The position numbers were made by a program, and so were the translations under genes. This document shows, piece after piece, positions 8,797-64,000 of a stretch of DNA of 64,000 nt; within the stretch, counting starts at the first letter, position 1, and each line of letters starts with the position of its first letter. The stretch lies in contig JBBTQL010000004.1 of NCBI GenBank assembly GCA_038065715.1, positions 35,693 through 99,692 of the forward strand, read 5' to 3'. This DNA is from Patescibacteria group bacterium (GTDB lineage: Bacteria > Patescibacteriota > Minisyncoccia > Minisyncoccales > Staskawiczbacteraceae). The notes beneath the pieces are model-generated. The model had not been told where the DNA came from, searched no databases, and was given only the letters and a program-made list of their open reading frames with translations.

Positions 8797-9312
8797 TTGT
8801 GGATTATGAGAAATAAAATTATAACAAAAAGTTTTAAAGAAACTCAAAAAATTGGCGAGAAATTGGCAGATGAAATTTTGAAATTACTGCCGCAAAAAAG
8901 CGCAATAATTTTAGGTTTGAACGGAAACCTTGGGGGAGGCAAAACAACCTTCTTGCAAGGTTTTGCAAAAGGGCTGGGAATTAAAGAAAAAATATTAAGC
9001 CCCACCTTTGTAATTTACAAAAAGTTTATTATTTCACCAATACTTATAAATAAGCGTACGCAGAATTTGGAGTATCGCCAATTTTATCACTTTGATTGCT
9101 ATCGCATAAAAAATTACAAAGACTTTTTGGCGATAGGATTTTCCGCCCAAGGCGGACCAGCCTCGGGCTGGAAAGAAATAATTTCAAACCCAAAAAATAT
9201 TGTGGCAATTGAATGGCCAGAAAAAATTAAAAAGATTTTTCCAAAAACTGCCGTAAAGATAAATTTTAAATTTATCAACGAAAGCGCAAGAGAGTTGACA
9301 ATTAATAAATAA
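8797..9312 (+). CDS. tsaE: tRNA threonylcarbamoyladenosine biosynthesis protein TsaE
   Basis: P-loop LGLNGNLGGGKTTFLQGFAKGLGI typical of TsaE/YjeE; ~170 aa. Confidence 0.75.
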   Translation: MWIMRNKIITKSFKETQKIGEKLADEILKLLPQKSAIILGLNGNLGGGKTTFLQGFAKGLGIKEKILSPTFVIYKKFIISPILINKRTQNLEYRQFYHFDCYRIKNYKDFLAIGFSAQGGPASGWKEIISNPKNIVAIEWPEKIKKIFPKTAVKINFKFINESARELTINK

Positions 9313-11013: not shown

Positions 11014-11610
11014 ATGATGAAAATTACATCAAGGATAGCTTTGCCAATAATACTTGCAGGATTATTTGCGATTGTCTCTTTGATAGCCATAGAATACGAT
11101 AGATTAGATACTAGTTTTTATATAGTATTTTTATTTCTTGCAATATATTTGTTTTTATTTGGTTTTGCTATAGGAGAAAGGGTTTCTCTTCCCGTAAAAA
11201 AAATATTACAAAGGGCAACTGAATTAAGCAAAGGAGATTTAAAATCAAGAATTTATTTAGGGGATAAAGACGAGCTTGGCGAGCTTGCAAAAGTTTTTAA
11301 TAAAATAGCAGAAGAACTTGAAAATAGCCGCCTTGAAGCTGGAAAAACAGAAAATTCGGTTAATATAAAAGTGAAAGCCAGAACAGAATCTTTAGAAGAA
11401 ACAATAAAAGCGTTAGAACAAAAAGTCGGGAATAGGGCTTTAGAGCTTGATAAAATAATAAATGAATCTAAAAAAATGCAGGAGATAGCGGCTAAAAAAG
11501 AGATGGAGGCTTTAGAATTAAAAAATGAGCTTTTATTTTTAAAAGAAAAAGCAAAAAGATATAAATCTAAGAAATGTCCGGTTCCGGTAAATGAGGATAA
11601 CGGACAATAA
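11014..11610 (+). CDS. membrane protein with HAMP domain and coiled coil
   Basis: Two N-terminal TM helices then HAMP-like LPVKKILQRATELSKGDLKSRIYLGDKDELGELAKVFNKIAEEL, coiled-coil tail. Confidence 0.5.
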   Translation: MMKITSRIALPIILAGLFAIVSLIAIEYDRLDTSFYIVFLFLAIYLFLFGFAIGERVSLPVKKILQRATELSKGDLKSRIYLGDKDELGELAKVFNKIAEELENSRLEAGKTENSVNIKVKARTESLEETIKALEQKVGNRALELDKIINESKKMQEIAAKKEMEALELKNELLFLKEKAKRYKSKKCPVPVNEDNGQ

Positions 11611-11619
11611 TAAAAAAAG

Positions 11620-12513
11620 ATGCCAGAGCTTCCAGAAGTAGAAACAACGGTGCGCGGTTTAAATTCAAAGGTCCTAAAAAGGGCCTTTGTTGATGTGTGG
11701 TCAGATTGGGAAAGAATAATTAAAAAACCAGACAATTTTGAAGTTTTTAAAAAAAATATAAAAGGTAAAAAAATAGAAAAAATATGGCGCCGCGCTAAAA
11801 ATATTATTTTTGATTTATCTGAAGAAAGTTCTCTTTTAATCCACCAAAAAATGACAGGCCATCTTTTGCATGGAACATGGAACATAAAACATGAAACATG
11901 GACGCCGGCTGAAAAAGGTCCATTGAATGACCCGATGAATCGTTTTATTCATTTAATATTTTTTTTAGACAATGGAAAAATGCTCGCTTTGTCTGATGCA
12001 AGAAAATTTGCCAAAGTTGAATTATGGAAAACAGAAGAATTATTAAAAGAATTTGATAATTTAGGGCCAGAACCGCTGGACAAAAATTTTACTTTTGAAA
12101 AGTTTAAAGAAAGATTGTTGCGGCAAAACCCGCCTTCGCCAAGGCTTCGGCGGGGCAAAGTAAAACAGGTTTTAATGAATCCAGAAATAATTGCAGGCAT
12201 TGGAAATATTTATTCTTCAGAGGCATTGTGGCATGCAAAAATACATCCAGAAAAAGAAATCCAAAAATTAAATGGCAAAGAACTAAAAAATATTTATAAT
12301 TCTATTAAAAAAGTTTTAGAGTTGGGGGTGAAATTGGGAGGAGAAAGTTTCTCAGACTACAGAAAACCAGACGGCAGCAAAGGAAATTTTGACACAGAAA
12401 GAAGGGCTTATAAAAGGGAGGGGCAAAAATGCCATAGATGCGGGACAAAAATAAAAAGAATAAAATTTGGCGGCAGAAGCGCATTTTTTTGCCCCCACTG
12501 CCAAAAACTATGA
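11620..12513 (+). CDS. mutM: formamidopyrimidine-DNA glycosylase (Fpg/MutM)
   Basis: MPELPEVETTVRGL N-terminus; C-terminal zinc finger CHRCGTKIKRIKFGGRSAFFCPHCQ; carries GC-rich in-frame insert at 12130-12155. Confidence 0.9.
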   Translation: MPELPEVETTVRGLNSKVLKRAFVDVWSDWERIIKKPDNFEVFKKNIKGKKIEKIWRRAKNIIFDLSEESSLLIHQKMTGHLLHGTWNIKHETWTPAEKGPLNDPMNRFIHLIFFLDNGKMLALSDARKFAKVELWKTEELLKEFDNLGPEPLDKNFTFEKFKERLLRQNPPSPRLRRGKVKQVLMNPEIIAGIGNIYSSEALWHAKIHPEKEIQKLNGKELKNIYNSIKKVLELGVKLGGESFSDYRKPDGSKGNFDTERRAYKREGQKCHRCGTKIKRIKFGGRSAFFCPHCQKL

Positions 12514-12526
12514 TAAAAGCAAAAAA

Positions 12527-13331
12527 TAGAGACCCGATCTCGCACAACTCACACAAAAAAATACTATGCCATATAGAAAAGAACAATTTGTGAACGGAGA
12601 TATTTATCACATTACCAATAGAGCAATTGATGATAACTTAATTTTTAAAGATAAAAACGATTATTATCGCGGTATTTTTTCTATTTATGAATTTAATAAT
12701 GAAAAACCTGTGAATATATCTAATAGAAGACGAGATCGGATTGTCGAAAAAGAAAGAGAAAAACCGTGTGAGACCGGGTCTCATGCGAAGCTTTCTTCGG
12801 ATGAAAGGGAAAAGTTGGTGGATATTTTTGCATTTTGTTTTATGCCAAATCATATTCATCTTTTGGTAAAACAGCTGGAAGATAATGGAATAACTAATTT
12901 TATGAAAAAAGTCGGCATAGGATATGGAGGTTATTTTAATAGAAAATATCAGCGCAAAGGTTATGTTTTCCAAAACAGATTTAAATCAGTTCACATAGAG
13001 AATGACAATCAATTTATGGTGGTTGTGCCGTACATATTTACAAATCCCACCGCATTAATAGAGCCAGGGTGGAAAGGACAGGGGATCAAAAATCACTCCA
13101 CCAAAGAGGTGCTTAAATTTTTAGAAGAATACAAGTGGTCAAGTTATCAAGATTGTATTGGAATTAAGAATTTTGATTCTGTCACACAAAGAGATTTTTT
13201 ATTAGAAATGATGGCAGGCAAACAAGGTTGTAAAGACGCAGTTGAAAATTGGATAAAAAATAAAGTCGAAATTGGACAGCACGCAAATATTTTATTAGAT
13301 TAAAAACCGTGTGAGATCGGGTCTCACACAG
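12527..13331 (+). mobile_element. RAYT/IS200-like HuH transposase unit flanked by REP-like hairpins
   Basis: GAGACCCGATCTC.. at 12529-12554 is inverted copy of ..GTGTGAGATCGGGTCTCACAC at 13306-13330; third near-identical copy inside the ORF at 12761-12788. Confidence 0.5.
12566..13303 (+). CDS. Y1 HuH tyrosine transposase (IS200/IS605 TnpA-like / REP-associated tyrosine transposase)
   Basis: 245 aa; HuH motif FMPNHIHLLV; C-terminal GGYFNRKYQRKGYVFQNRF resembles catalytic-Tyr/GxLWQxRF region of Y1 transposases. Confidence 0.7.
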   Translation: MPYRKEQFVNGDIYHITNRAIDDNLIFKDKNDYYRGIFSIYEFNNEKPVNISNRRRDRIVEKEREKPCETGSHAKLSSDEREKLVDIFAFCFMPNHIHLLVKQLEDNGITNFMKKVGIGYGGYFNRKYQRKGYVFQNRFKSVHIENDNQFMVVVPYIFTNPTALIEPGWKGQGIKNHSTKEVLKFLEEYKWSSYQDCIGIKNFDSVTQRDFLLEMMAGKQGCKDAVENWIKNKVEIGQHANILLD

Positions 13332-13332
13332 C

Positions 13333-14316
13333 TTGCTAAAAATGATTTATTTTATTTACGGGGAAGATTCTTACAGGTCAAAAAAGAAATTAGAAGAGAT
13401 AATTTTAGGTTACAAAAAAGTCCATAAATCAGGATTAAATTTGGTTTATGTTGATGCTGGTAAAACAGACTTTAATGATTTTTACAGCAATTTTAAAATT
13501 ACCTCAATGTTTGCTGAAAAAAAACTGATAGTTTTAAAAAATGTTTTTTCTCGCCCTGAACGCGCCGAAGGGCCAAGTCAAAAGTTTCAGGAGGAGTTTT
13601 TAGAAAATTTTAAAAATTTAGAAAAAATTGAAGATATAATTATTGTTTTTGAATATGATGCGGTTGATGAAAGAAAAAAGCTTTTTAAAATTTTAAAAAA
13701 AGAAACAAAATGCCAGGAGCTCTCTTTTCTTTTTGGGCTAAGCCTAAAAAAATGGGCAAAAGAGGAGTTCGAAAAAAACAAAACAAAAATTAATCCTGAC
13801 GCAGAAGACTTGCTTTTGGCTTTTACGGGAAACGATCTCTGGCAATTAGCAAATGAGATAAATAAATTATCAAATTATAAAAGAGAGGGGTACTCGCTGC
13901 CAGGTCTTATAAAAAAAGAAGATGTTGAGCTTTTAGTAAGGCCTAAGTTAGAAAATGATATTTTTAAAACAATTGAAGCCATGGCTCAAAAAAATAAAAA
14001 AGAAGCTTTTTCTTTATTGCATAAGCATATTGAAAATGGAGACAACGCCCTTTATCTGCTTTCAATGATTGCCTACCAGTTTAAAAATCTTTTAATAATA
14101 AAAGAACTTATTGAAAAACGCCTGCCCTATGCTGTTGTTTCAAAAAACAGCGGGCTTCACCCGTTTGTTGTTAAAAAAACATATTATTTGTGCGGCCAGT
14201 TTTCATTTAACGAACTAAAAAAAATCTACCAAAAAATTTTTCAGGCAGATTTAGATATTAAAACAGGTAAGATTGATCCAGAACTCACCTTAGATTTATT
14301 AGTTTCAGAAGTATAG
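13333..14316 (+). CDS. holA: DNA polymerase III delta subunit
   Basis: N-terminus (M)IYFIYGEDSYRSKKKLEEII and FAEKKLIVLKN typical of HolA; ~325 aa. Confidence 0.65.
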   Translation: MLKMIYFIYGEDSYRSKKKLEEIILGYKKVHKSGLNLVYVDAGKTDFNDFYSNFKITSMFAEKKLIVLKNVFSRPERAEGPSQKFQEEFLENFKNLEKIEDIIIVFEYDAVDERKKLFKILKKETKCQELSFLFGLSLKKWAKEEFEKNKTKINPDAEDLLLAFTGNDLWQLANEINKLSNYKREGYSLPGLIKKEDVELLVRPKLENDIFKTIEAMAQKNKKEAFSLLHKHIENGDNALYLLSMIAYQFKNLLIIKELIEKRLPYAVVSKNSGLHPFVVKKTYYLCGQFSFNELKKIYQKIFQADLDIKTGKIDPELTLDLLVSEV

Positions 14317-14322
14317 TTATTT

Positions 14323-14583
14323 TTATTTTTTTTCTATCAATCTTGTTAATCTGGATTTTTTTCTTGACGCGGCATTCTTTTTTATAACCCCCTTTTTTGC
14401 CGCTTTATCTAAAATAGAATAAACCTCTGATAATAGTTTTTTTACTTCAACAGATTTTTTTTCTAAAACCAAACTGCGGGCCTCTTTAATGAGGCTTTTC
14501 ATTTTGTTTTTATAAACAAGATTTTGCTCTTTTCGCCTTGCGTTTTGGCGAATAGCTTTTTTAGCTGATTTTGTTATAGCCAT
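14323..14583 (-). CDS. rpsT: 30S ribosomal protein S20
   Basis: MAITKSAKKAIRQNARRKEQN...; 86 aa basic protein. Confidence 0.9.
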   Translation of the reverse strand: MAITKSAKKAIRQNARRKEQNLVYKNKMKSLIKEARSLVLEKKSVEVKKLLSEVYSILDKAAKKGVIKKNAASRKKSRLTRLIEKK

Positions 14584-24218: not shown

Positions 24219-24878
24219 ATGGCTGTGCAAGTCATTGGCGATCTATATGTGGAGTTGGATGGGAAGTTGGCGGAGATTAAGCGGCAAATGAGGCAGCAGG
24301 GAGGCTATCCGTTTGACCCGGAGAAATTAAACAAGTTTCTCCAACTAGCTGTCGAGGGCAGGTTCAACGACAACCGGTGCTGGTGCGAGAAGGAAGGAGT
24401 GATCTACTTTGAGGTCACCTCTGACGGCACGACTGGACCCCAATGGATTGAGCGTCTGGAGAAGAAGGGTATCCAGCTCTCCAAGTGGGCCAAGGACGTC
24501 CTGCTGTCTCCGGACTTCAAGCCGACCAACGGCGTGACCACCGAGATCGCTGTCCTCAAGGGCGCGCTTTTTATGGACAATGATCGCATCACGTCTAAGA
24601 TCCGCGCTGAGGCCGACAAGCGCAAGCTCGTCAAGCCCGAAGCCGAACTCGGTTGCCTTATCCGCGACACGTTCACGGACGAGGAAATCGAAGCCATGGG
24701 TCTTGTGTGGATCGTGGCGTTCCACGAGCCCATCAAGGACTCTGACGGCGATCCGACGTTGCTCGGTGCGCGTCGCCTTGGCGATGGCCGTTGGCTGCGC
24801 GCGTGCTGCGGCCTGCCCGACCGCAGGTGGCTTCGCGACCGTGGCTTTGCCTTCGCCGTCTCGCAAGTATCTTCGTAA
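24219..24878 (+). CDS. DGR target protein (variable C-terminus, probable C-type lectin-like fold)
   Basis: 219 aa; ~60% GC in 33% GC genome; AAAGGAG RBS; C-terminal ...GARRLGDGRWLRACCGLPDRRWLRDRGFAFAVSQVSS encoded by VR. Confidence 0.7.
   Translation: MAVQVIGDLYVELDGKLAEIKRQMRQQGGYPFDPEKLNKFLQLAVEGRFNDNRCWCEKEGVIYFEVTSDGTTGPQWIERLEKKGIQLSKWAKDVLLSPDFKPTNGVTTEIAVLKGALFMDNDRITSKIRAEADKRKLVKPEAELGCLIRDTFTDEEIEAMGLVWIVAFHEPIKDSDGDPTLLGARRLGDGRWLRACCGLPDRRWLRDRGFAFAVSQVSS
24741..24866 (+). other. DGR variable region VR1
   Basis: 126 nt aligning 1:1 with TR1 25208-25333; 22 of 23 mismatches fall at TR adenines. Confidence 0.8.
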
Positions 24879-25207
24879 GTCCTTTGGGCTTGAGCCTTTG
24901 CTCTAGCCCTTGGATCCTCTGCCCTTTGCATTTCCTCACGGACTTGCACTGGGCAGATTTTTTTTGCTAAAATATAAATGGTAATAGGTGAATCTTGCGG
25001 GAGATCAAGGTTTCCCGCGGCCGAATCCAGTATTCGTATGCTGAGAGCGTTTGCGATTAAGGTTGCAAACGGAGGGCATACGAATTACTTTCAAAAAAGA
25101 AGATACTTGGCGTGGGAAACTAGGGCATTACGATGCCGAATTCGATACAGCCCTGTGATCGTAAAACTACTTCAAGGGGCAGTGGCATAGATGGTTTCTT
25201 GCGTATT

Positions 25208-25333
25208 TCTGACGGCGATCCGAACTTGCTCAGTGCGAATCGCAATGACGATGGCCATTGGCTGAACGCGTACTACGACAAGCCCGACAACAGGTGGAAT
25301 CGCGACAATGGCTTTGCCTTCGCCGTCTCGCAA
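25208..25333 (+). other. DGR template repeat TR1 (non-coding)
   Basis: Adenine-rich (AAC-rich) near-copy of VR1; followed by diverged IMH-like end; preceded by conserved CAAGGGGCAGTGGCATAGATGG element shared with DGR-2. Confidence 0.8.
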
Positions 25334-25339
25334 CTCTCT

Positions 25340-25699
25340 TCATTTCTCTCCTTGCTTAGGAGAGTTTTGTTTAATAATTTGTCCCGACCAACCACCGAGC
25401 ATTTTGCCAATTTCATCTAGTTTCAATGATAGAGCAATATATTTTTTGTTATCCAATGATTTTGTTTCCCAAAGAATCATTAAAAATATTTTTAACGTAT
25501 CGACCTTTCTAATTGCTAAACGTACATAGGACAATTTTTCTGATTGCCCAAGAAAACTTGCAGTCACTATTGCCTCTATTGCTTCAACAAAAAGTTTATC
25601 AATTTTTTCACCAAGAGAATATTTATGTATTTTTGGTATAATTAAATAGTGTTGGTACCAAAAAAGATAAGCTTCTTTCAACTTTTGCAAAACAGGCAA
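25340..25699 (-). CDS. Avd-like accessory variability determinant (four-helix-bundle family)
   Basis: ~120 aa from TTG 25699; paralog of 63274-63642; C-terminal ...KLDEIGKMLGGW motif; antisense to TR and RT. Confidence 0.55.
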   Translation of the reverse strand: MPVLQKLKEAYLFWYQHYLIIPKIHKYSLGEKIDKLFVEAIEAIVTASFLGQSEKLSYVRLAIRKVDTLKIFLMILWETKSLDNKKYIALSLKLDEIGKMLGGWSGQIIKQNSPKQGEK

Positions 25700-25739
25700 C
25701 AGTCTGGGGGGGGGGATTAAAAGCTGAGTTATTTTGATT

Positions 25740-26726
25740 ATGAAAATTACTTTGCAACATAAATACGAAGACATCATAAGCGTTGAGAATATTTTGGAAG
25801 CATGGCAAGAGTTTCTTCTCGGCAAAAGAAACAAGCCCGATGTTCAAGAATTTTCTCTCTGTCTGATGAATAATGTTTTTAATTTGCACAACGACTTATC
25901 CAATCATACCTACAAACACGGAGGCTATCAACAATTTAAAATTAACGACCCAAAGCCAAGAACAATCCACAAAGCCAGCGTAAAAGACAGATTATTGCAC
26001 CACGCAGTATATCGTATATTATACCCGTTTTTTGATAAAAAGTTTATTGCAGACTCTTTCTCTTGCAGAAACAACAAAGGCACTCATAAAGCATTAAACA
26101 AATTCAGGGAGTTCAGCTATATTGTTTCCAAAAACAACACAAACACCTGCTGGATTTTAAAATGCGACATAAAAAAGTTTTTTGCCAGCGTTGATCAGCA
26201 GATACTAATTAAAATTTTAGAAAAATATATTTCAGAAAAAGATATTATCAACTTTCTAAAAGAAATAATTTTTGGTTTTAAACCCAATGGTTTGCCTCTC
26301 GGTAATTTGACTTCCCAGTTGTTCGCAAATGTTTATCTGAATGAATTTGACCAGTTTGTAAAACACAAATTGAAAGTAAAATACTATATTAGGTATGCCG
26401 ATGACTTCGTAATTTTATCAGAGAACAAAAATTATTTAAAAAACATAATTCCAGAGCTAAAATATTATTTAAAAAACAATTTAAAACTGGAAATTCATCC
26501 AAATAAAATTTTTATTAAAACATTGAATTCTGGCGTTGATTTTTTAGGCTGGATTAATTTTACAGATCATAGAGTTTTAAGGACAAAAACTAAAAACAGA
26601 ATATTAAAGAGAATAAAAAATAATTCAAGTATTGAAACATTAAATTCTTATTCGGGTTTGTTAAAACATGGAAATATGAACAAAATGATTAAGAAATTAT
26701 TTAAGGAAACGGAGATTGCTTTTTAA
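25740..26726 (+). CDS. DGR reverse transcriptase
   Basis: RT motifs incl. YADD and DGR-diagnostic LGNLTSQLFANVYL (IGxxxSQ); ~328 aa. Confidence 0.85.
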   Translation: MKITLQHKYEDIISVENILEAWQEFLLGKRNKPDVQEFSLCLMNNVFNLHNDLSNHTYKHGGYQQFKINDPKPRTIHKASVKDRLLHHAVYRILYPFFDKKFIADSFSCRNNKGTHKALNKFREFSYIVSKNNTNTCWILKCDIKKFFASVDQQILIKILEKYISEKDIINFLKEIIFGFKPNGLPLGNLTSQLFANVYLNEFDQFVKHKLKVKYYIRYADDFVILSENKNYLKNIIPELKYYLKNNLKLEIHPNKIFIKTLNSGVDFLGWINFTDHRVLRTKTKNRILKRIKNNSSIETLNSYSGLLKHGNMNKMIKKLFKETEIAF

Positions 26727-39830: not shown

Positions 39831-41482
39831 TAAAAGAAGAAATAAAAAAAATAGTGGAAAACTCAATTAAAAACCTGCAAAAACAGGGCGCATTTTTAAA
39901 ATTAAAAATGCCAGAAATTTTAATTGAGCGGCCTAAAGAAAAAATACGCGGTGACTATTCAACCAACATTGCCTTTGTAATTGGAAAAGATGTTTTGAAA
40001 AATCCATTTGAAACGGCATTGCTTTTGAAAACAGAAATTGTCTCGCTTTGCGAGATCTCGCGCAGCGAGAAAAAACAAAAATCTGTAATAGAAAAAGTTG
40101 AGGTAGTGGGAGGGTTTATTAATTTTTTTGTTGCTGACGATTATTTTAAAAATCAGCTGCAAATTATTTTAAAACAAAAAAACAAATTTGGAGATTTAAA
40201 ACTTGGTAAAAGTCAAAAAGTAAACATAGAATTTATTTCTGCAAATCCAACAGGGCCGTTAACTTTAGGAAACGGCAGAGGAGGATTTTGTGGCGATGTT
40301 TTGGCTAATGTTTTAGAAAAAGCAGGATATAAAGTTGAAAGAGAATATTATATTAACAATACCGGAGCTCAAATTAAAAAACTTGGGCATTCTGTAATTG
40401 GAGATGCAGAAGCTGTTTACAAAGGAAAATATATTATTGATTTAAGAAACAAAGTTAAGGGAGATGACCCCGAGAAAGTTGGAGAAAAATCGGCAAAAAT
40501 TATTTTAGAAAAAATGATAAAGCCGTCTGTAAAAAAAATGGGAATTAAATTTGACACATGGTTTTCAGAAAAAACTCTCTATAAAAATAAAGAAGTAGAT
40601 AAAACAATACAAGAATTGGCTAAAAAAGGGTTCACCTATGAAAGCGAAGACGCTGTGTGGTTTAAATCTAAAGAATTGGGCGATGACAAAGACAGGGTTT
40701 TGGTGAGAGCCGACGGAATTAAAACATATTTTGCTTCAGATATTGCTTATTTTAAAAATAAATTTAAAAGAGGGTTTGGTAAACTTATTATGTTTTTGGG
40801 AGCCGACCACTATGGATATGTTCCGAGGCTAAAAGCTGCCTCGCTTGCTTTTGGTTTTAAAAAAGACAGTATTGATGCTATTGTTATGCAGTTGGTGCGG
40901 CTTTATGAAAAAGGCAAAGAAGTAAGAATGGCAAAAAGGACTGGTATTTATGTAACAATAGATGAGTTAATTGGCGAGGTTAGTTTGGATGTTGCCAGAT
41001 TTTTCTTTTTAATGATAAGCCCTAATACCCACATGAATTTTAATTTGGATTTAGCAAAAGAAAAATCAGAGAAAAATCCGGTTTTTAAAGTGCAATATGC
41101 GCATGCCCGAATTTGCTCAATTTTCCGAAAATTTGGAAATTTCAAATTTTCCCGATTTCATCGAGGATCCTCAATGGCAAAGCCATCGGGACAAATTTCA
41201 AATTTAAAATTATTAAATGAGCCGAGCGAGTTAGGGTTAATTAGAGAATTAATTAAACTTCCAGAAATTATTGAAGAGATAGCTAAAGATTATCAAGTTC
41301 AAAGACTACCGCAATACGCAATGGATTTAACTGATGCATTCCATAGATTTTATGAAAACTGTAAAGTCCTGAGCGAAGTCGAAGGATTGCGTGATGCCCG
41401 CTTGTCTCTTGTTATGGCAACAAAAATTGTTTTAAAAAATACATTAGACTTAATGGGAATATCTGCTCCTGAAAAAATGTGA
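39827..41482 (+). CDS. argS: arginine--tRNA ligase
   Basis: SANPTGPLTLGNGRGG class I motif; C-terminal DALK-type anticodon-binding domain; in-frame AAATTT-type repeat plus GC hairpin insert 41108-41190. Confidence 0.9.
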   Translation: MIKEEIKKIVENSIKNLQKQGAFLKLKMPEILIERPKEKIRGDYSTNIAFVIGKDVLKNPFETALLLKTEIVSLCEISRSEKKQKSVIEKVEVVGGFINFFVADDYFKNQLQIILKQKNKFGDLKLGKSQKVNIEFISANPTGPLTLGNGRGGFCGDVLANVLEKAGYKVEREYYINNTGAQIKKLGHSVIGDAEAVYKGKYIIDLRNKVKGDDPEKVGEKSAKIILEKMIKPSVKKMGIKFDTWFSEKTLYKNKEVDKTIQELAKKGFTYESEDAVWFKSKELGDDKDRVLVRADGIKTYFASDIAYFKNKFKRGFGKLIMFLGADHYGYVPRLKAASLAFGFKKDSIDAIVMQLVRLYEKGKEVRMAKRTGIYVTIDELIGEVSLDVARFFFLMISPNTHMNFNLDLAKEKSEKNPVFKVQYAHARICSIFRKFGNFKFSRFHRGSSMAKPSGQISNLKLLNEPSELGLIRELIKLPEIIEEIAKDYQVQRLPQYAMDLTDAFHRFYENCKVLSEVEGLRDARLSLVMATKIVLKNTLDLMGISAPEKM

Positions 41483-53335: not shown

Positions 53336-54607
53336 ATGTATAAAAAAACAACATTAAAAAACGGATTAAGGGTGATAACAATTCCAATGGAAAACGCCAA
53401 TAGTGTTACTGTTTTAATCTTGGTTGGCACAGGTTCAAAATATGAAACAAAAGACATAAACGGCATTTCTCATTTTTTAGAACATATGTTTTTTAAAGGC
53501 ACTGAAAAAAGGCCAACCACTTTAAAAATTGCCGAAACCTTAGATATGGTTGGCGGCGAATATAATGCTTTCACATCAAAAGAAATTACTGGATTTTGGG
53601 CTAAAGTAGATAAAAAACACACAGATGTTGCTTTAGACTGGATATCTGATATGTTTTTAAATTCTAAATTTGACGAAAAAGAAATAGAAAGAGAAAAAGG
53701 AGTAATAATAGAAGAGGTAAATATGTATTTAGACACCCCAATGGCCTATGTTGGAGAATTATGGGAAGATTTGCTTTACAAAGACCAGCCGGCCGGCTGG
53801 CGGGTTATAGGCGAAAAAGAAAACATACTGAACTTTAACAGAAAAAAAATTATAAATTATTATAAAAATCATTATTCGCCAAAAAATACAATAATTTGCG
53901 TGTCGGGAGGCATTGAGCAAGATAAAATTGCATCAAAAATACAGAGTTATTTTTCCCCCTTCGGGGGATCCGCCGTAGGCGGAAAAGTTAAAGTAAAAGA
54001 ATACCAAAAAGAGCCTGAAATATTGTTTCACCATAAAAAAACAGACCAGACCCATTTTTGTTTAGGGGTAAGGGCATACGATATGTTTCATCAGCAAAAA
54101 TATGCTTTGGTTTTACTGGCTATTATTTTGGGGGGAAACATGAGCTCGCGTCTTTTTATTAAAGTAAGGGAAAGAAGCGGTTTGGCTTATTCTATTCACA
54201 CATCTGTTGACGCTTCTACTGACACCGGATATTTGGTCACGCAAGCTGGAATTGACCATAAAAATTTAGAAAAATCAGTAAAGCTTATTTTACAGGAATA
54301 TAAAAACATTAAAGATACAAAAATTACAGAAAGAGAATTGCAAAAGGCAAAAGATTATTTAAAGGGAACTATGTCTTTGTCTTTAGATTCGTCAGACAGC
54401 CAAGCTTCTTTTTATGCCGTGCAAGAATTGCTTGAAAAGGAAGTTTTATCTCCTGAAGAAAAGTTTAAAAAAATTGACACAGTTTCTGTAAATGATATAA
54501 AAAAGGTAGCAGAGGATATATTTTTACCAGAAAAGTTGAATTTGGCAGTTATCGGCCCGTTTGAAGAAAATAAAAAAGAAGAGTTTAAAAAAATACTAAA
54601 AATATGA
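53336..54607 (+). CDS. M16 family zinc peptidase
   Basis: HFLEHMFFKGT (HxxEH) zinc-binding motif; 423 aa; in-frame double UUCG-type hairpin insert 53955-53982. Confidence 0.85.
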   Translation: MYKKTTLKNGLRVITIPMENANSVTVLILVGTGSKYETKDINGISHFLEHMFFKGTEKRPTTLKIAETLDMVGGEYNAFTSKEITGFWAKVDKKHTDVALDWISDMFLNSKFDEKEIEREKGVIIEEVNMYLDTPMAYVGELWEDLLYKDQPAGWRVIGEKENILNFNRKKIINYYKNHYSPKNTIICVSGGIEQDKIASKIQSYFSPFGGSAVGGKVKVKEYQKEPEILFHHKKTDQTHFCLGVRAYDMFHQQKYALVLLAIILGGNMSSRLFIKVRERSGLAYSIHTSVDASTDTGYLVTQAGIDHKNLEKSVKLILQEYKNIKDTKITERELQKAKDYLKGTMSLSLDSSDSQASFYAVQELLEKEVLSPEEKFKKIDTVSVNDIKKVAEDIFLPEKLNLAVIGPFEENKKEEFKKILKI

Positions 54608-58036: not shown

Positions 58037-58945
58037 ATGATTATTGATACACATTCTCATTTAAGTTTTAAGGCATATGATAGCGATAGAGATGAGGTTA
58101 TAAAACGCACTCAAAAAGAGGGTGTTGTTTGTATTGATGTTGGCACAAAATATGAAACAAGCAAAAGGGCAGTTGAATTAGCAGAAAAATATGAAAATAT
58201 ATATGCAGCCGTTGGAATGCATCCAATTCATATAAAAACAGATTTATTAAAATTAAAATTAGACAAAGAAGAGGGCGCATTTGCTCCGCTTGGCGAAGAG
58301 TTTGATAAAGCGAAATACAGAGAACTTGTTATAAATAGTGAAAAAAAAGCCGAAGGTCCTAACTCGAGAAGGACCGAAGGCTCTGAGGAGCTAAAGCGAC
58401 GAAGAGTGGTAGCGGTTGGTGAAATTGGATTAGACTATTATTATAAGCCAAAAGGAACAGCTAAAAAAGAACAATTTAAAGAAAAACAAAAACAAGTTTT
58501 TTTACAGCAATTAGAATTGGCAGAAGAATTAAATTTACCGGTAATTGTTCATTGCAGAATGGCGCATCAGGATGTTATAGAAATTTTGAAAAATAAAAAT
58601 GTTGAAGGAGTTATTCATTGTTTCACAGGAAATTGGGAAGAAGCGCAAAAATATATAGATTTAGGATTTTATATTGGCTTAAACGGAATTATTTTTTCTG
58701 CCCTAGGCAGACCCGCCTCGGGCGGGAAATTACCGCTAGATGATGTTGTTACGCAGTGTCCCCTAGATAAAATTTTAACAGAAACAGATTGCCCATATTT
58801 AACACCCTTGCAGGAAAACGGAAAAAGAAACGAACCGATTTTTGTAAAACACGTTATTCAAAAAATCGCTGACTTAAAAAGTGTTAGTTTCGCCGAAGTT
58901 GCCGACAAAACTACCCAAAACGCCAAAAAATTATTTAATATTTAA
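58037..58945 (+). CDS. tatD: TatD family deoxyribonuclease/hydrolase
   Basis: MIIDTHSHLSF; metal-binding His/Glu/Asp pattern; in-frame GC hairpin insert ~58348-58400. Confidence 0.85.
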   Translation: MIIDTHSHLSFKAYDSDRDEVIKRTQKEGVVCIDVGTKYETSKRAVELAEKYENIYAAVGMHPIHIKTDLLKLKLDKEEGAFAPLGEEFDKAKYRELVINSEKKAEGPNSRRTEGSEELKRRRVVAVGEIGLDYYYKPKGTAKKEQFKEKQKQVFLQQLELAEELNLPVIVHCRMAHQDVIEILKNKNVEGVIHCFTGNWEEAQKYIDLGFYIGLNGIIFSALGRPASGGKLPLDDVVTQCPLDKILTETDCPYLTPLQENGKRNEPIFVKHVIQKIADLKSVSFAEVADKTTQNAKKLFNI

Positions 58946-62014: not shown

Positions 62015-62201
62015 ATATGCTATGATTAATAATACAGCTCTTTTTAAGTGAAAATACTTGCAAAAACAGCGGTTATAGCCAAAAGCGACCGAAGGTCGTC
62101 CTGAGCAGAGCCGAAGGACAACAAATCGGTATTTTCTGGCTATGACTGCTATGGTAGTAGTCAAGCGAAATGGTGAAACCCTAAAGAAAGGAAAAAGCAC
62201 C

Positions 62202-62822
62202 ATGTCGTACGACAAGCAGACAGCCGAGTTCATCGCCACTGTGGTGCAGAACATCCCCAAAATGTCAGGCGATGTTATGCAGGGTTGGATTGGGAATCCA
62301 AAAGCGCTACAGAAGCTCCTCTTGGGTCTATGCCCTTCTGTCAATGAGCCCAAGGAAGTCTCGTTGCTCCGCAAGCTCGCCAGCGTTCAGGTGGAGGGCG
62401 TTGCAAGATTCGTCGTTGACGACGATACCCTGCAGGCGGCCAACATCGGCTGGACTGGCGACAACTTCAAAAAGTTTTTCGCCAAGAAGGTTGAGGAGGA
62501 TGTTCCCGCCTGCGCTATCGCTGTTCACCGGCTGGAACGCGCGTCTTCGGATGCGCCCATTCTCACCGAACTCGGTGACCGCGCCGAAATCAGCCTCGCG
62601 CACCTGTTCGAGCTGATCAAAAAGCAGTCCAAGGGCGAAACTGGCCAGTTGTTGGTTAATGGTTATGCGAATGTCGCATATGTCCGTGGAACCGATGGCA
62701 ACCTCTGGGCTGTGCTTGCGGCCTGGCGCTCTTACTGCGGTTGCTGGGGTGTCGAGGCTGACTCGGTTGAGGATCCGGACGGGTGGCGCGGTAGCCGCCG
62801 GATTCTCTCCCGCGATTCTTGA
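62202..62822 (+). CDS. DGR target protein 2 (variable C-terminus)
   Basis: ~206 aa from ATG 62202 after AAAGGAAAAAG RBS (the 62142 start lies in conserved leader); ~58% GC; C-terminal ...LWAVLAAWRSYCGCWGVEADSVEDPDGWRGSRRILSRDS in VR. Confidence 0.7.
   Translation: MSYDKQTAEFIATVVQNIPKMSGDVMQGWIGNPKALQKLLLGLCPSVNEPKEVSLLRKLASVQVEGVARFVVDDDTLQAANIGWTGDNFKKFFAKKVEEDVPACAIAVHRLERASSDAPILTELGDRAEISLAHLFELIKKQSKGETGQLLVNGYANVAYVRGTDGNLWAVLAAWRSYCGCWGVEADSVEDPDGWRGSRRILSRDS
62704..62813 (+). other. DGR variable region VR2
   Basis: 110 nt aligning with TR2; 21 mismatches, all at TR adenines. Confidence 0.8.
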
Positions 62823-63164
62823 AACTTAATCCTTTTGGGATTTTGGATCTTGAATCCTTTGAATCTATGGCTCTCTGAAACTTTGAAAAAAGTAGTAAGA
62901 GAGCCTTTTTGTTTTGTGAAAAAGTAATGTAGAATAAATCTAAGGAATGCTAAGTATGAAGGCTACGGCTTTCATAAAGCGCTCCGAAAATGTATATTGC
63001 AGAATTATTGCGGATACGTCTTCAATAAGAGTTGATATACATATTTCAAAAAAAGAAAAGAATCGGTGTGGCGTGCTGGCGGACTTTGAGGTCCCAAATA
63101 AGATACAGCCCCTAGAGTATTCAAAGGGCAGTGGCATTGATGGCGCGTTGCATATTAATTAGGG

Positions 63165-63274
63165 TCTGGGCTGTGAATGCGAACTGGAACTCTAACTACG
63201 GTTACTGGAATGTCGAGGCTAACTCGGTTGAGAATCCGAACAGGTGGAACGATAGCAACCAGATTCTCTCCCGC
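63165..63274 (+). other. DGR template repeat TR2 (non-coding)
   Basis: A-rich near-copy of VR2; upstream CAAAGGGCAGTGGCATTGATGG element conserved with DGR-1. Confidence 0.8.
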
Positions 63275-63642
63275 TACTGTTTTCTTTCTTCCGCTTTTAT
63301 CGCGGAAGTTTTGCTTATTATTCCTTTTTTCCAGCCACCGATTATCTTACCAATGCCTTCTATCTCAGCGCCAAGCGAGATATATTGTTTATTAGAAACG
63401 AGTTTTGTTTCCCATAAAAGCTGAAAGAAAAAACGCAACGAATCAATTTTGTCCGATGTCGCTTCAAGCAAAACAAGTTTTTTATTTATTGGCGTATACG
63501 TAGCTTTTCTTAATAACTCAAGAAGATCTAAAAATAAAATATCTACTTTAGTCCCGATTCCGAACCGCGCGATTCGTTCAATATTGCGATGCACTTCCAT
63601 CCACTGTTTATATATCAATTTGGATTTTTGCAAAACTGGCAA
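63274..63642 (-). CDS. Avd-like accessory variability determinant
   Basis: 122 aa; TTG start; paralog of 25340-25699; ...EIEGIGKIIGGW motif. Confidence 0.6.
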   Translation of the reverse strand: MPVLQKSKLIYKQWMEVHRNIERIARFGIGTKVDILFLDLLELLRKATYTPINKKLVLLEATSDKIDSLRFFFQLLWETKLVSNKQYISLGAEIEGIGKIIGGWKKGIISKTSAIKAEERKQ

Positions 63643-63685
63643 CAGTCTGGGGGGGATTAGAAGAATAACTATTTATATTTTGATT

Positions 63686-64000
63686 ATGAAAATTGTTTTG
63701 AAACATAAATATGAATATTTAATTAGCGTTAATAATTTATTGGAAGCGTGGACAGAATTTATCAAGGGGAAGCGCAACAAAAGCGATGTTCAGATTTTTT
63801 CATTTCATTTAATGGATAATATTTTACAACTTCATTGTGATTTAAAAAATGGCACATATAAGCATGGAGGCTATCAACAATTTAAAATCAACGACCCAAA
63901 ACCAAGGATAATTCACAAAGCCAGCGTAAAAGACAGATTATTGCACCACGCAGTATATCGTATATTATACCCGTTTTTTGATAAAAAGTTCATTGCAGAC
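63686..64000 (+). CDS. DGR reverse transcriptase, N-terminal part (3' end beyond window)
   Basis: MKIVLKHKYEYLISVNNLLEAW...KINDPKPRIIHKASVKDRLLHHAVYRILYPFFDKKFIAD nearly identical to RT at 25740. Confidence 0.8.
   Translation, partial: MKIVLKHKYEYLISVNNLLEAWTEFIKGKRNKSDVQIFSFHLMDNILQLHCDLKNGTYKHGGYQQFKINDPKPRIIHKASVKDRLLHHAVYRILYPFFDKKFIAD

What the first reader, a model, noticed from the sequence alone, without database searches (positions are those of the whole stretch)
12527..13331. RAYT/IS200-like HuH tyrosine transposase bracketed by REP-like hairpins, with a third hairpin copy inside its own ORF
The 245-aa ORF has the HuH motif (FMPNHIHLL) and a C-terminal YxxxxxxGYVFQNRF region, like Y1 transposases / REP-associated tyrosine transposases. 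Immediately after its stop lies AAAACCGTGTGAGATCGGGTCTCACACAG (perfect 8-bp stem). An inverted copy lies 12 nt before the start codon. A direct near-identical copy (AAAACCGTGTGAGACCGGGTCTCATGCG) sits in frame inside the gene at 12761-12788. This is the REPtron arrangement. It is a plausible driver for the hairpin repeats that have colonised coding regions throughout this window.
Basis: partly seen in the sequence, partly recalled or inferred. Interest (0 to 1): 0.7.

Follow-up and report, generated by a model that had tools for sequence, protein, structure and literature searches.

The report
Hairpin-flanked RAYT-like gene in Patescibacteria
This is an intact gene for a single-strand-DNA-cutting enzyme of the IS200/RAYT kind that carries copies of its own recognition hairpin after, inside and (decayed) before its reading frame, an arrangement shared by a whole family of genes in ultra-small groundwater bacteria, but it is not the source of the other hairpins in this window.

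Summary
The sequence facts hold. ORF 12566-13303 (245 aa) is a Y1 HUH protein: Pfam Y1_Tnp above cut-off, and the AlphaFold model's best PDB match is E. coli TnpA_REP. A perfect 8-bp hairpin follows the stop codon. A 6-bp in-frame copy lies at 12769-12783. The upstream copy is only a 4-bp remnant. The catalytic Tyr is Y156 (PYIFTNP), not the quoted GYVFQNRF motif.

Comparison with about 115 homologous genes from Patescibacteria shows a family trait. Each gene has its own GC palindrome with a conserved top (GAG-R-NCGGG-Y-CTC) and a locus-specific lower stem. Copies sit upstream, downstream and, in about two thirds of close relatives, in frame in one disordered loop 16-29 codons before HuH. Copies match within a locus and differ between loci. 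In one pair of 90%-identical loci the internal copy has been swapped.

The gene has co-diverged with fpg and holA, but three related genomes have clean empty sites.

The closest known kind is a REPtron. In-frame REPs inside tnpAREP are already published (subclass 2.4), at a different position.

The "driver" claim fails. The motif occurs nowhere else in the 64 kb, and the other GC hairpins are a different class.

Verdict: new variant of a known kind, moderate interest.

The parts
12566..13303 (+). Y1 HUH (RAYT/TIRYT-like, class-2 TnpA_Y1) gene, 245 aa, intact
   Evidence: ORF listing. Pfam Y1_Tnp 35 bits, cut-off 23. AF2 pLDDT 89.8. Foldseek best hit 4ER8. 1565 homologs, 60-82% identical over the full length, in Patescibacteria.
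12851..12859 (+). HuH motif codons H96-I97-H98
   Evidence: Read from the sequence. H96 and H98 are invariant in alignments A1 and A3. They align to HMH of 4ER8.
13031..13033 (+). Codon of Y156, the predicted catalytic tyrosine (PYIFTNP, Y-x3-NP motif of class 2)
   Evidence: Aligned to the first Tyr of DYIYINP (residues 114-120) of 4ER8. Invariant in A3. Lies on helix 147-158 of the model.
13304..13331 (+). Downstream hairpin D: stem 13309-13316 / 13322-13329, loop TCGGG
   Evidence: ssDNA fold -7.5 kcal/mol, z = -4.0.
12761..12788 (+). Internal in-frame hairpin M: perfect stem 12769-12774 / 12778-12783, CGG loop. It encodes residues K67-A75 of a disordered loop.
   Evidence: Residues 65-84 are the only low-confidence internal stretch of the model (pLDDT below 50 at residues 70-75; the N- and C-terminal tails are also less confident).
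12520..12553 (-). Upstream remnant U: conserved core GAGA-CCCGA-TCTC at 12529-12541. The left arm AAAATAGAGA matches the hairpin type of L162 and L165. The right arm is no longer complementary.
11620..12513 (+). fpg (MutM), left boundary of the slot that the unit occupies
   Evidence: Pfam families listed. Synteny. Empty sites where fpg abuts holA in L161, L163 and L164.
13342..14316 (+). holA (DNA polymerase III delta), right boundary of the slot
   Evidence: Empty-site junctions.

Best explanation
The locus is a REPtron-like unit. It pairs a catalytically intact class-2 Y1 HUH single-strand-DNA endonuclease/strand-transferase with its own cognate palindromic hairpins. The enzyme resembles RAYT/TIRYT proteins and belongs to a family that is widespread and multi-copy in Patescibacteria.

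Inferred mechanism: the enzyme recognises the conserved top of the hairpin (GAG-R-NCGGG-Y-CTC) when it is extruded on single-stranded DNA, then cuts and rejoins nearby. Because it acts mostly in cis, hairpin copies are written and overwritten at three tolerated 'slots'. These are the 5' flank, one disordered protein loop ahead of the HuH strand, and the 3' flank. This would keep the copies of one locus alike while loci drift apart.

I take the in-frame copy to be most likely a tolerated, actively renewed by-product rather than a required element.

The whole unit is old and mainly vertically inherited at the fpg|holA junction. It can be lost cleanly and is occasionally relocated. In this window the unit is ageing: D is intact, M is weakened and U is decayed.

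Shown here: the fold, the catalytic residues, the hairpin architecture, its conservation and covariation, one slot replacement, and synteny with empty sites.

Inferred, not shown: binding, cleavage, and that the enzyme is the agent of homogenisation.
For: Protein:
- Pfam Y1_Tnp is above cut-off.
- The HuH histidines and Y156 are invariant.
- The best sequence and fold match is TnpA_REP 4ER8.
- Y-x3-NP is the class-2 signature in Quentin et al. 2018 (PMC6006769).

Hairpins:
- In 61 close homologs the longest shared string between U, M and D of one locus has a median of 16-20 nt, against 8 nt between loci.
- The consensus has G(-6) in 44/45 loci, A(-5) in 43/45 and an NCGGG loop. Lower-stem positions use all four Watson-Crick pair types and stay 78-96% paired.
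- An in-ORF copy is present in 29-32 of 40 loci, always 16-29 codons before HuH.
- The linker holds a palindrome of at least 8 pairs in 41/61 genes, against 16/183 control windows.
- M occurs in both loop orientations (20 with CGG on the coding strand, 15 with CCG) and, by inspection of the coding context, in more than one reading frame. The conserved thing is therefore the DNA, not the peptide.
- M maps to a loop of low model confidence (pLDDT below 50 at residues 70-75).

Slot replacement: L022 and L024 are 90% identical in DNA. Their U and D hairpins are homologous, but M is the U type in one and the D type in the other.

A 28%-identical subfamily shows U/D palindrome pairs in 41/52 loci. 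It shows internal copies at the same place in about a quarter of loci.

History of the locus:
- The order exo53-HAMP-fpg-Y1-holA-rpsT is shared by 14 or more genomes.
- Y1 identities track Fpg identities with r = 0.61, and mean Y1 identity is 61% against 68% for Fpg and 58% for HolA.
- Paralogs within one MAG are only 54-73% identical.
- Extra REP-like copies lie just after stop codons in L039.
Against: - There is no biochemical evidence that this protein binds or cuts these hairpins.
- The hairpin is not dispersed. There are no further copies in the 64-kb window and none in the +-10 kb flanks of most relatives. The defining REP property of high copy number is therefore missing.
- There is no GTAG guide tetranucleotide.
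- The NCBIfam RAYT model scores below its cut-off.
- Homogenisation could come from ordinary short-tract gene conversion or template switching rather than from the enzyme.
- One third of close relatives lack a good internal copy. Nothing shows that the copy is needed or, conversely, that it is neutral.
Confidence: 0.6

Rival explanations
1. It is an autonomous IS200-like insertion sequence. On this reading the gene is a working transposase. U and D are its left-end and right-end subterminal hairpins. The roughly 0.8-kb unit moves by single-strand 'peel and paste'.
For: - Clean empty sites, where fpg abuts or overlaps holA, occur in L161, L163 and L164. Each is nested among filled genomes in an Fpg tree.
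- An 82%-identical unit with its own U/M/D hairpins sits in a different context, upstream of murB, in L165/L166.
- MAGs carry 2-5 copies.
- The fold also matches IS608 and ISDra2 TnpA.
Against: - No near-identical copies exist within any genome; paralogs are 54-73% identical.
- The gene co-diverges with its neighbours at housekeeping-like rates.
- The Y motif is Y-x3-NP, not the Y-x3-Q of IS200 transposases.
- NCBIfam transpos_IS200 scores 13 bits against a cut-off of 55.
- U and D are in inverted orientation in 22 of 32 loci, whereas IS200/IS605 ends lie on one strand.
- In this window U is decayed.
Confidence: 0.15
2. The hairpins are ordinary RNA-level regulatory structures, such as terminators, attenuators or mRNA stabilisers. 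They resemble one another through local duplication, and the Y1 protein does not act on them.
For: - The consensus scan calls M terminator-like on both strands.
- D-type hairpins sit right after stop codons, here and at the extra copies in L039.
- Downstream copies have a biased loop orientation, 33 against 9.
Against: - A terminator does not need a loop (NCGGG) and stem top (GAG..CTC) conserved across 45 loci.
- U and M occur in both orientations, which changes the RNA loop.
- D in this window has no T-run and lies 12 nt before the holA start in what looks like an operon.
- Hairpins with this signature occur only next to Y1 genes in the window.
- No Rfam family matches.
- The G.T versus A.C mismatch asymmetry test gave no consistent strand signal.
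Confidence: 0.1
3. The internal hairpin is a required cis-element, for example an autoregulatory binding or nicking site inside the gene or a third recombination site. On this reading it is not a tolerated passenger.
For: - The position is the same in two subfamilies that are only 28% identical.
- Long perfect palindromes of up to 16 bp are maintained inside coding sequence.
- In close relatives of L043 the internal palindrome keeps pairing through G-C to A-T double changes relative to the flanking copies.
Against: - About one third of subfamily-1 genes and about three quarters of subfamily-2 genes lack a strong internal palindrome.
- In this window M is already weakened while the ORF is intact.
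- The site is the only long disordered loop in the model, so it may simply be the only permissive place.
Confidence: 0.3

Closest known systems
REPtron: RAYT / TnpA_REP flanked by REPs (E. coli yafM, PDB 4ER8; Quentin subclasses 2.2 and 2.5; Bertels groups 2 and 3)
   Same: - Y1 HUH fold; 4ER8 is the best sequence and structure match.
- Y-x3-NP motif.
- The gene is bracketed by cognate GC-rich palindromes, mostly in inverted orientation (22/32 loci).
- Some hairpins form inverted doublets like REPINs (L009, L032, L034, L051).
- Inheritance is largely vertical.
- Each paralog has its own hairpin type.
   Different: - It scores below the NCBIfam RAYT cut-off.
- There is no 5' GT[AG]G foot. The conserved part is the hairpin top and loop.
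- The hairpins are essentially private to the gene rather than present in tens to hundreds of dispersed copies.
- There are 2-5 paralogs per small genome.
- The protein has about 80 extra C-terminal helical residues.
TnpA_Y1 subclass 2.4 (Bertels group 4): REPs inserted in frame within tnpAREP itself (Quentin et al. 2018, PMC6006769)
   Same: A copy of the flanking REP lies inside the gene without breaking the frame, in a peripheral variable region. This is the published precedent for the 'third copy in its own ORF'.
   Different: [quoted passage not shown] Here it lies 16-29 codons upstream of HuH.
- Subclass 2.4 has WQ and YIxNNP motifs and a median length of 194 aa, and is found in Cyanobacteria and Bacteroidetes. 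Here the motifs are FQ and YIFTNP, with a WSS motif, the length is 245 aa, and the hosts are Patescibacteria.
TnpA_Y1 subclass 2.1 / TIRYT (Bertels group 1; Di Nocera et al. 2013, PMC3733652)
   Same: - Similar length (median 238 aa).
- NH[VYF]H-type HuH motif, an FQ variant of the W motif, and an 'SS' motif after the Tyr (KWSSY here).
- A C-terminal extension.
- Low identity among copies within a genome.
   Different: - Subclass 2.1 was reported without REP-like hairpins, or with terminal inverted repeats carrying GGGGWSAS.
- Its C-terminal domain resembles DnaA_C or HTH domains. No such Pfam hit is found here at E <= 1.
- Here perfect palindromes flank the gene and also enter it.
IS200/IS605 insertion sequences (IS200, IS608, ISDra2)
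   Same: - A small unit of about 0.8 kb with one Y1 gene and hairpins at both ends.
- Seamless empty sites in relatives.
- Related fold.
   Different: - The Tyr motif is Y-x3-NP, not Y-x3-Q.
- There are no identical copies.
- The ends are usually inverted.
- The unit has resided long-term at one locus.

Membership tests
Y1_Tnp / TnpA_Y1 HUH superfamily (PF01797) | Profile match above the curated cut-off | tested here: met
   35 bits against a cut-off of 23, covering residues 72-157.
Y1_Tnp / TnpA_Y1 HUH superfamily (PF01797) | HuH metal-binding motif and a single catalytic Tyr on the following helix | tested here: met
   H96-I-H98 and Y156 are invariant in 42 diverse sequences. They align to the HMH and DYIYINP motifs of 4ER8.
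Y1_Tnp / TnpA_Y1 HUH superfamily (PF01797) | IS200-type alpha/beta fold | tested here: met
   AF2 pLDDT 89.8. Foldseek hits are 4ER8 at E = 5e-6, then ISDra2 and IS608 TnpA.
Class 2 TnpA_Y1 (RAYT in the broad sense, Quentin 2018) | Y-x3-NP tyrosine motif | tested here: met
   Y156-I-F-T-N160-P161. N160 and P161 are at least 90% conserved.
Class 2 TnpA_Y1 (RAYT in the broad sense, Quentin 2018) | Low copy number with low identity among copies in one genome | tested here: met
   2-5 copies per MAG, 54-73% identical, with no pair at or above 95% within a genome.
Canonical RAYT / REPtron (NCBIfam NF047646; subclasses 2.2 and 2.5) | Equivalog HMM score above cut-off | tested here: not met
   41.9 bits against a cut-off of 80.
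Canonical RAYT / REPtron (NCBIfam NF047646; subclasses 2.2 and 2.5) | Gene flanked by cognate palindromes within +-1 kb | tested here: met
   The window has D intact and U as a remnant. In relatives, U and D share at least 12 nt in 44/61 and 41/52 loci.
Canonical RAYT / REPtron (NCBIfam NF047646; subclasses 2.2 and 2.5) | 5' GT[AG]G guide tetranucleotide at the hairpin foot | tested here: not met
   The foot positions are variable, with information below 0.4 bit. The conserved part is GAG-R-NCGGG-Y-CTC at the top.
Canonical RAYT / REPtron (NCBIfam NF047646; subclasses 2.2 and 2.5) | The same palindrome dispersed in many extragenic copies genome-wide | tested here: inconclusive
   There are 0 extra copies in the 64-kb window. 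Most +-10-kb flanks have none; L039 and L032 have 4 each and L061 has 3. The rest of the source genome could not be read.
TnpA_Y1 subclass 2.4 | REP copy inserted in frame within the gene | tested here: met
   12761-12788, in frame. Found in 29-32 of 40 relatives.
TnpA_Y1 subclass 2.4 | [quoted passage not shown] | tested here: not met
   The insertion lies 16-29 codons before HuH. The motifs are FQ and YIFTNP and the length is 245 aa, compared with the table.
TnpA_Y1 subclass 2.1 / TIRYT | About 238 aa, FQ or W[EQ] motif, SS motif after the Tyr | tested here: met
   245 aa, with GYVFQNRF and KWSSY. W191, S192 and S193 are at least 90% conserved.
TnpA_Y1 subclass 2.1 / TIRYT | C-terminal DnaA_C or HTH-like domain; flanks without REPs, or with GGGGWSAS terminal inverted repeats | tested here: not met
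   No second Pfam domain is found at E <= 1. The flanks are perfect palindromes, and the GGGGWSAS motif is not seen in the hairpin sequences listed.
IS200/IS605 insertion sequence | IS200 transposase HMM and Y-x3-Q motif | tested here: not met
   NF033573 scores 13.1 bits against a cut-off of 55. The motif is Y-x3-NP.
IS200/IS605 insertion sequence | Several near-identical copies per genome | tested here: not met
   The highest within-genome identity is 73%.
IS200/IS605 insertion sequence | Presence/absence polymorphism with seamless empty sites | tested here: met
   L161, L163 and L164 have fpg directly followed by or overlapping holA.
Any of the above | The enzyme binds and cleaves its hairpin on ssDNA | not testable with these tools
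   This needs biochemistry.

The most novel reading that the evidence does not exclude
The three-slot hairpin layout may not be an accident of insertion. It may be a self-maintaining system in which a Y1 HUH enzyme copies, flips and overwrites its own recognition hairpin at fixed sites, including a site inside its own coding sequence. The intragenic copy would then serve as a cis-acting control or recombination site, through which the enzyme senses or nicks its own gene. That would be enzyme-driven concerted evolution of a protein-coding segment. It would also be a compact, REP-poor model for what RAYT-type enzymes actually do.
Probability: 0.3. Interest if true: 0.75.

Novelty: new variant of a known kind. 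Interest (0 to 1): 0.55.

Why it matters
What RAYT-type 'domesticated' Y1 enzymes do in cells is still unsettled. The classical systems are hard to dissect because hundreds of REPs are scattered over the genome.

This Patescibacteria family is large. It has 339 clusters at 50% identity with E <= 1e-30. Its substrate set appears reduced to two or three private hairpins attached to the gene. The hairpin top is clearly conserved, the lower stem is locus-specific, and hairpin replacement has been caught between 90%-identical loci.

That makes three questions directly testable with a handful of oligonucleotides and one small protein: recognition, the cleavage site, and copy exchange.

The family also shows that reading frames in reduced genomes can carry actively renewed DNA palindromes.

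If the enzyme turns out to be irrelevant to the hairpins, the finding reduces to an ordinary annotated 'transposase' with local repeats.

Tried and rejected
- Rfam scan of 11500-14500 at E <= 1: no family matched.
- Terminator reading: the consensus scan flags M but not D, and D has no T-run. Kept only as a weak rival.
- Strand asymmetry of G.T versus A.C mismatches, to separate RNA-level from DNA-level selection: M leans to G.T (21 vs 13), while U and D lean the other way (8 vs 28 and 13 vs 24). A-rich flanks confound the result, so it is inconclusive.
- First AlphaFold run with 35 close homologs: pLDDT 49, unusable. It was redone with a diverse alignment.
- L016 as an empty site: other genes intervene, so it is not clean.
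- A target duplication. 'ATGAT' lies at both edges in this window, but inspection of the other filled junctions did not show it, so it was dropped.
- My interim claim that all members of the distant subfamily keep an internal palindrome: quantification gave only about 14-16 of 53, so it was withdrawn.
- Sequence or class identity between the Y1 hairpin and the window's other GC hairpins: rejected.
- Reading U as a simple decayed inverted copy of D: its left arm is identical to the AAAATAGAGA hairpin type of L162 and L165 instead.
- Literature: no paper in the library links Patescibacteria/CPR with RAYT or IS200 palindromes.
Full report
**1. What is in the window**

ORF 12566-13303 (+) encodes 245 aa. 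It lies between fpg (11620-12513) and holA (13342-14316). The surrounding gene order is exo53-HAMP-fpg-Y1-holA-rpsT-radical SAM. The source is a Hainich groundwater metagenome, and NCBI labels the protein 'MAG: transposase [Patescibacteria group bacterium]'.

The 18-mer GTGTGAGAYCGGGTCTCA, allowing up to 3 mismatches, hits only three places in 64 kb, with 0 expected.
- D (13309-13329) is a perfect 8-bp stem with a TCGGG loop. It starts 6 nt after the stop codon. As ssDNA it folds at -7.5 kcal/mol, z = -4.0.
- M (12761-12788) is in frame and encodes EKPCETGSHA. It has a perfect 6-bp stem around CGG, or 10 pairs with two G.T pairs. It folds at -6.3 kcal/mol, z = -2.1.
- U (12528-12545, minus strand) matches 16 of 18 bases. 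Only the GAGA/TCTC core can pair, and it folds at -1.5 kcal/mol, z = -1.0.

The observation therefore stands, except that the upstream element is a remnant rather than a hairpin.

**2. The protein**

Pfam Y1_Tnp scores 35 bits against a cut-off of 23. NCBIfam REP_Tyr_transpos scores 41.9 bits, below its 80-bit cut-off, and transpos_IS200 scores 13 bits against 55.

A profile of 35 homologs finds E. coli TnpA_REP (4ER8) as the best PDB sequence match. MPNHIHLL aligns with LPEHMHCI, and SYIFTNP aligns with DYIYINP. That string is the conserved W/FQ motif.

H96, H98 and Y156 are invariant in 42 sequences that go down to 28% identity.

AlphaFold with that diverse alignment gives pLDDT 89.8 and pTM 0.85. 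The only poorly defined internal stretch is residues 65-84, which is exactly the peptide encoded by M. Foldseek against the PDB ranks 4ER8 first (TnpA_REP bound to a REP hairpin, E = 5e-6), followed by ISDra2, IS608 and IS200 transposases.

I compared the motifs with the classification of Quentin et al. 2018 (PMC6006769). The motifs here are NHIH, FQ, YIFTNP and KWSSY, and the length is 245 aa. These place the protein in class 2 (Y-x3-NP). It is closest in architecture to subclass 2.1/TIRYT, but it lacks that subclass's DnaA_C/HTH-like domain.

The family is large. It has 1565 word-indexed homologs. Among 1.84 billion representative proteins, 339 clusters score E <= 1e-30 and 7635 score E <= 1e-10.

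**3. The hairpins are a family trait**

I fetched 79 loci from Patescibacteria MAGs and parsed 61 full genes. In almost every one, a GC-rich perfect palindrome lies upstream of the start, with its centre a median of 30 nt away. Another lies downstream of the stop, with its centre a median of 17 nt away. Usually a third lies inside the ORF.

The copies of one locus share their sequence. The longest common string has a median of 16-20 nt within a locus against 8 nt between loci.

Aligned on the central CGG, 45 loci give this consensus: variable lower stem, then G(44/45)-A(43/45)-G-R, then the loop N-C-G-G-G, then Y-C-T-C, then variable lower stem. Positions 6-9 of the stem use all four Watson-Crick pair types and remain 78-96% paired. 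The lower arm is 4.9/6 identical within a locus and 2.4/6 identical between loci.

So there is a conserved top, as expected for recognition by a conserved protein, and a locus-specific foot.

Hairpin-top variants follow the protein tree. The nearest protein neighbour shares the top type in 26/45 cases, against 21% expected by chance.

U and D are inverted relative to each other in 22 of 32 loci. Some hairpins form inverted doublets that resemble REPINs.

**4. The internal copy**

Of 40 loci whose U and D share at least 14 nt, 29-32 have a copy in the ORF. It always lies 16-29 codons before the HuH motif. A palindrome of at least 8 pairs occurs in that linker in 41/61 genes, against 16/183 control windows of the same ORFs.

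The internal copy occurs in both loop orientations, 20 against 15. By inspection of its coding context it also occurs in more than one reading frame, and it encodes unrelated peptides. The conserved thing is therefore the DNA palindrome.

A paralog only 28% identical to the window's protein, L043:7782-8465, has an unrelated AT-rich palindrome (AAACATTCAATGTTT) before, inside and after the gene. The internal copy lies at the equivalent position. Among 52 relatives of that paralog, U/D pairs are the rule (41/52). Strong internal copies occur in about a quarter of them, at 28-29 codons before HuH. I withdrew my earlier impression that all of them have one.

**5. Turnover**

L022 and L024 are 90% identical across the locus. 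Their U hairpins are homologous, with a compensatory G-C to A-T change, and so are their D hairpins. The M segment differs: in L022 it is the U type, and in L024 it is the D type together with its left flank, with the loop inverted. A slot has therefore been overwritten from within the locus since these two lineages split.

The closest syntenic relative of the window is L167 (Y1 80% identical). It has three perfect 10-bp copies of CCGTGTGAGA-N5-TCTCACACGG, in orientations U-, M-, D+. By comparison, the window's unit is decaying.

The window's U keeps the left arm AAAATAGAGA. That arm belongs to a second hairpin type that is intact at U in L162 and at all three slots in L165.

**6. History of the locus**

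The fpg-Y1-holA arrangement is shared by at least 14 genomes. Pairwise Y1 identities correlate with Fpg identities (r = 0.61, compared with 0.68 for Fpg against HolA). Mean Y1 identity is 61%, against 68% for Fpg and 58% for HolA. Inheritance at this slot is therefore largely vertical, at housekeeping-like rates.

Paralogs within one MAG are 54-73% identical, with no recent duplicates.

Three related genomes have fpg directly abutting or overlapping holA with no Y1 gene. They are L161 (Fpg 82% identical to the window's, the closest found), L163 and L164. Each is nested among filled genomes in an Fpg tree. This points to repeated clean loss.

An 82%-identical unit sits in another context, upstream of murB (L165/L166). 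The unit can therefore leave and, rarely, relocate.

**7. The 'driver' claim**

CGG-centred palindromes with the family's GAGA..TCTC core occur only at this locus in the window.

The window does hold 33 other GC-rich perfect hairpins, against 5.5 expected. They have other loops and are often tandem pairs of 15-nt units. Nothing links them to this gene.

In the +-10 kb around relatives, extra copies of the cognate hairpin are rare. Most loci have none; L039 and L032 have four each and L061 has three. In L039 they sit just after stop codons, as REPs do.

**8. Comparison with the literature**

RAYT genes flanked by cognate REPs (REPtrons) are well described. Quentin et al. [quoted passage not shown] Di Nocera et al. 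2013 (PMC3733652) catalogue REPs inside genes, and TIRYT genes with terminal repeats.

The differences here are:
- the lineage (Patescibacteria, with a 2.1-like protein architecture);
- a fixed slot ahead of HuH;
- a conserved loop and top instead of a GTAG foot;
- near-absence of dispersed copies;
- direct evidence for slot replacement.

I found no paper linking CPR bacteria with these elements.

**9. Verdict**

The best reading is a REPtron-like unit of a class-2 Y1 HUH enzyme with private cognate hairpins. The copies are kept alike by copy-replacement at three tolerated slots. The unit is old, mostly vertically inherited, can be lost, and is ageing in this window (confidence 0.6).

The rivals are as follows (the first two compete with the main reading; the third bears only on the role of the internal copy):
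- an IS200-like mobile element (0.15);
- plain RNA regulatory hairpins (0.1);
- for the internal copy specifically, a required cis-element rather than a tolerated passenger (0.3).

Binding, cleavage and the agent of homogenisation are inferred, not shown.

I rate it a new variant of a known kind, interest 0.55.

Noticed in passing
window 24219-26726: A diversity-generating retroelement. It has a high-GC target ORF at 24219-24878 with a variable repeat at 24741-24874. The template repeat is at 25208-25341 (82% identical). A bAvd gene lies at 25340-25834 (-), PF22296 at 44 bits. A reverse transcriptase lies at 25734-26726, RVT_1 at 87.7 bits.
   Followed up: partly
window 62142-64000: A second DGR cassette. 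It has a high-GC target ORF at 62142-62822 with a variable repeat at 62704-62820. The template repeat is at 63165-63281 (79% identical). A bAvd-like gene lies at 63274-63642 (-). An RT gene starts near 63676, is 78% identical in DNA to the first RT, and runs off the window.
   Followed up: partly
window 9142-9171, 40041-40070, 53954-53983, 58697-58726, and 29 other sites: There are 33 GC-rich perfect hairpins in a 34% GC window, against 5.5 expected. Several are tandem pairs of 15-nt units (6-bp stem plus 3-nt loop; 30 nt equals 10 codons). This is a different class from the Y1 hairpin, and its origin is unexplained.
   Followed up: partly
window 12116-12162 (inside fpg) and 13547-13584 (inside holA): GC-rich hairpin islands lie inside the two genes that flank the Y1 unit. 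They appear as the peptides PPSPRLRRGK in Fpg and SRPERAEGPSQ in HolA. They are unrelated in sequence to the Y1 hairpin.
   Followed up: no
L161 3905-3955: In the closest relative that lacks the Y1 gene, the 37-nt fpg-holA spacer holds two other GC hairpins (CAACCCT..AGGGTTG and GCGCT..AGCGC). There is no remnant of the Y1-type hairpin.
   Followed up: no
L061 1-601, 10001-10759, 20072-20744; L043 4080-4811 and 7782-8465: Several Y1 paralogs lie on single contigs. L061 has three copies about 10 kb apart. L043 has members of two subfamilies (28% identical) 3 kb apart, each with its own palindrome type.
   Followed up: partly
L082 and L085 (relatives of L043:7782-8465): Here the flanking palindromes are the AT-rich type (AAACATTCAATGTTT). 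In sister loci that type is found only inside the gene, where it encodes KHSMFN. This suggests that copying also runs from the internal slot to the flanks.
   Followed up: partly
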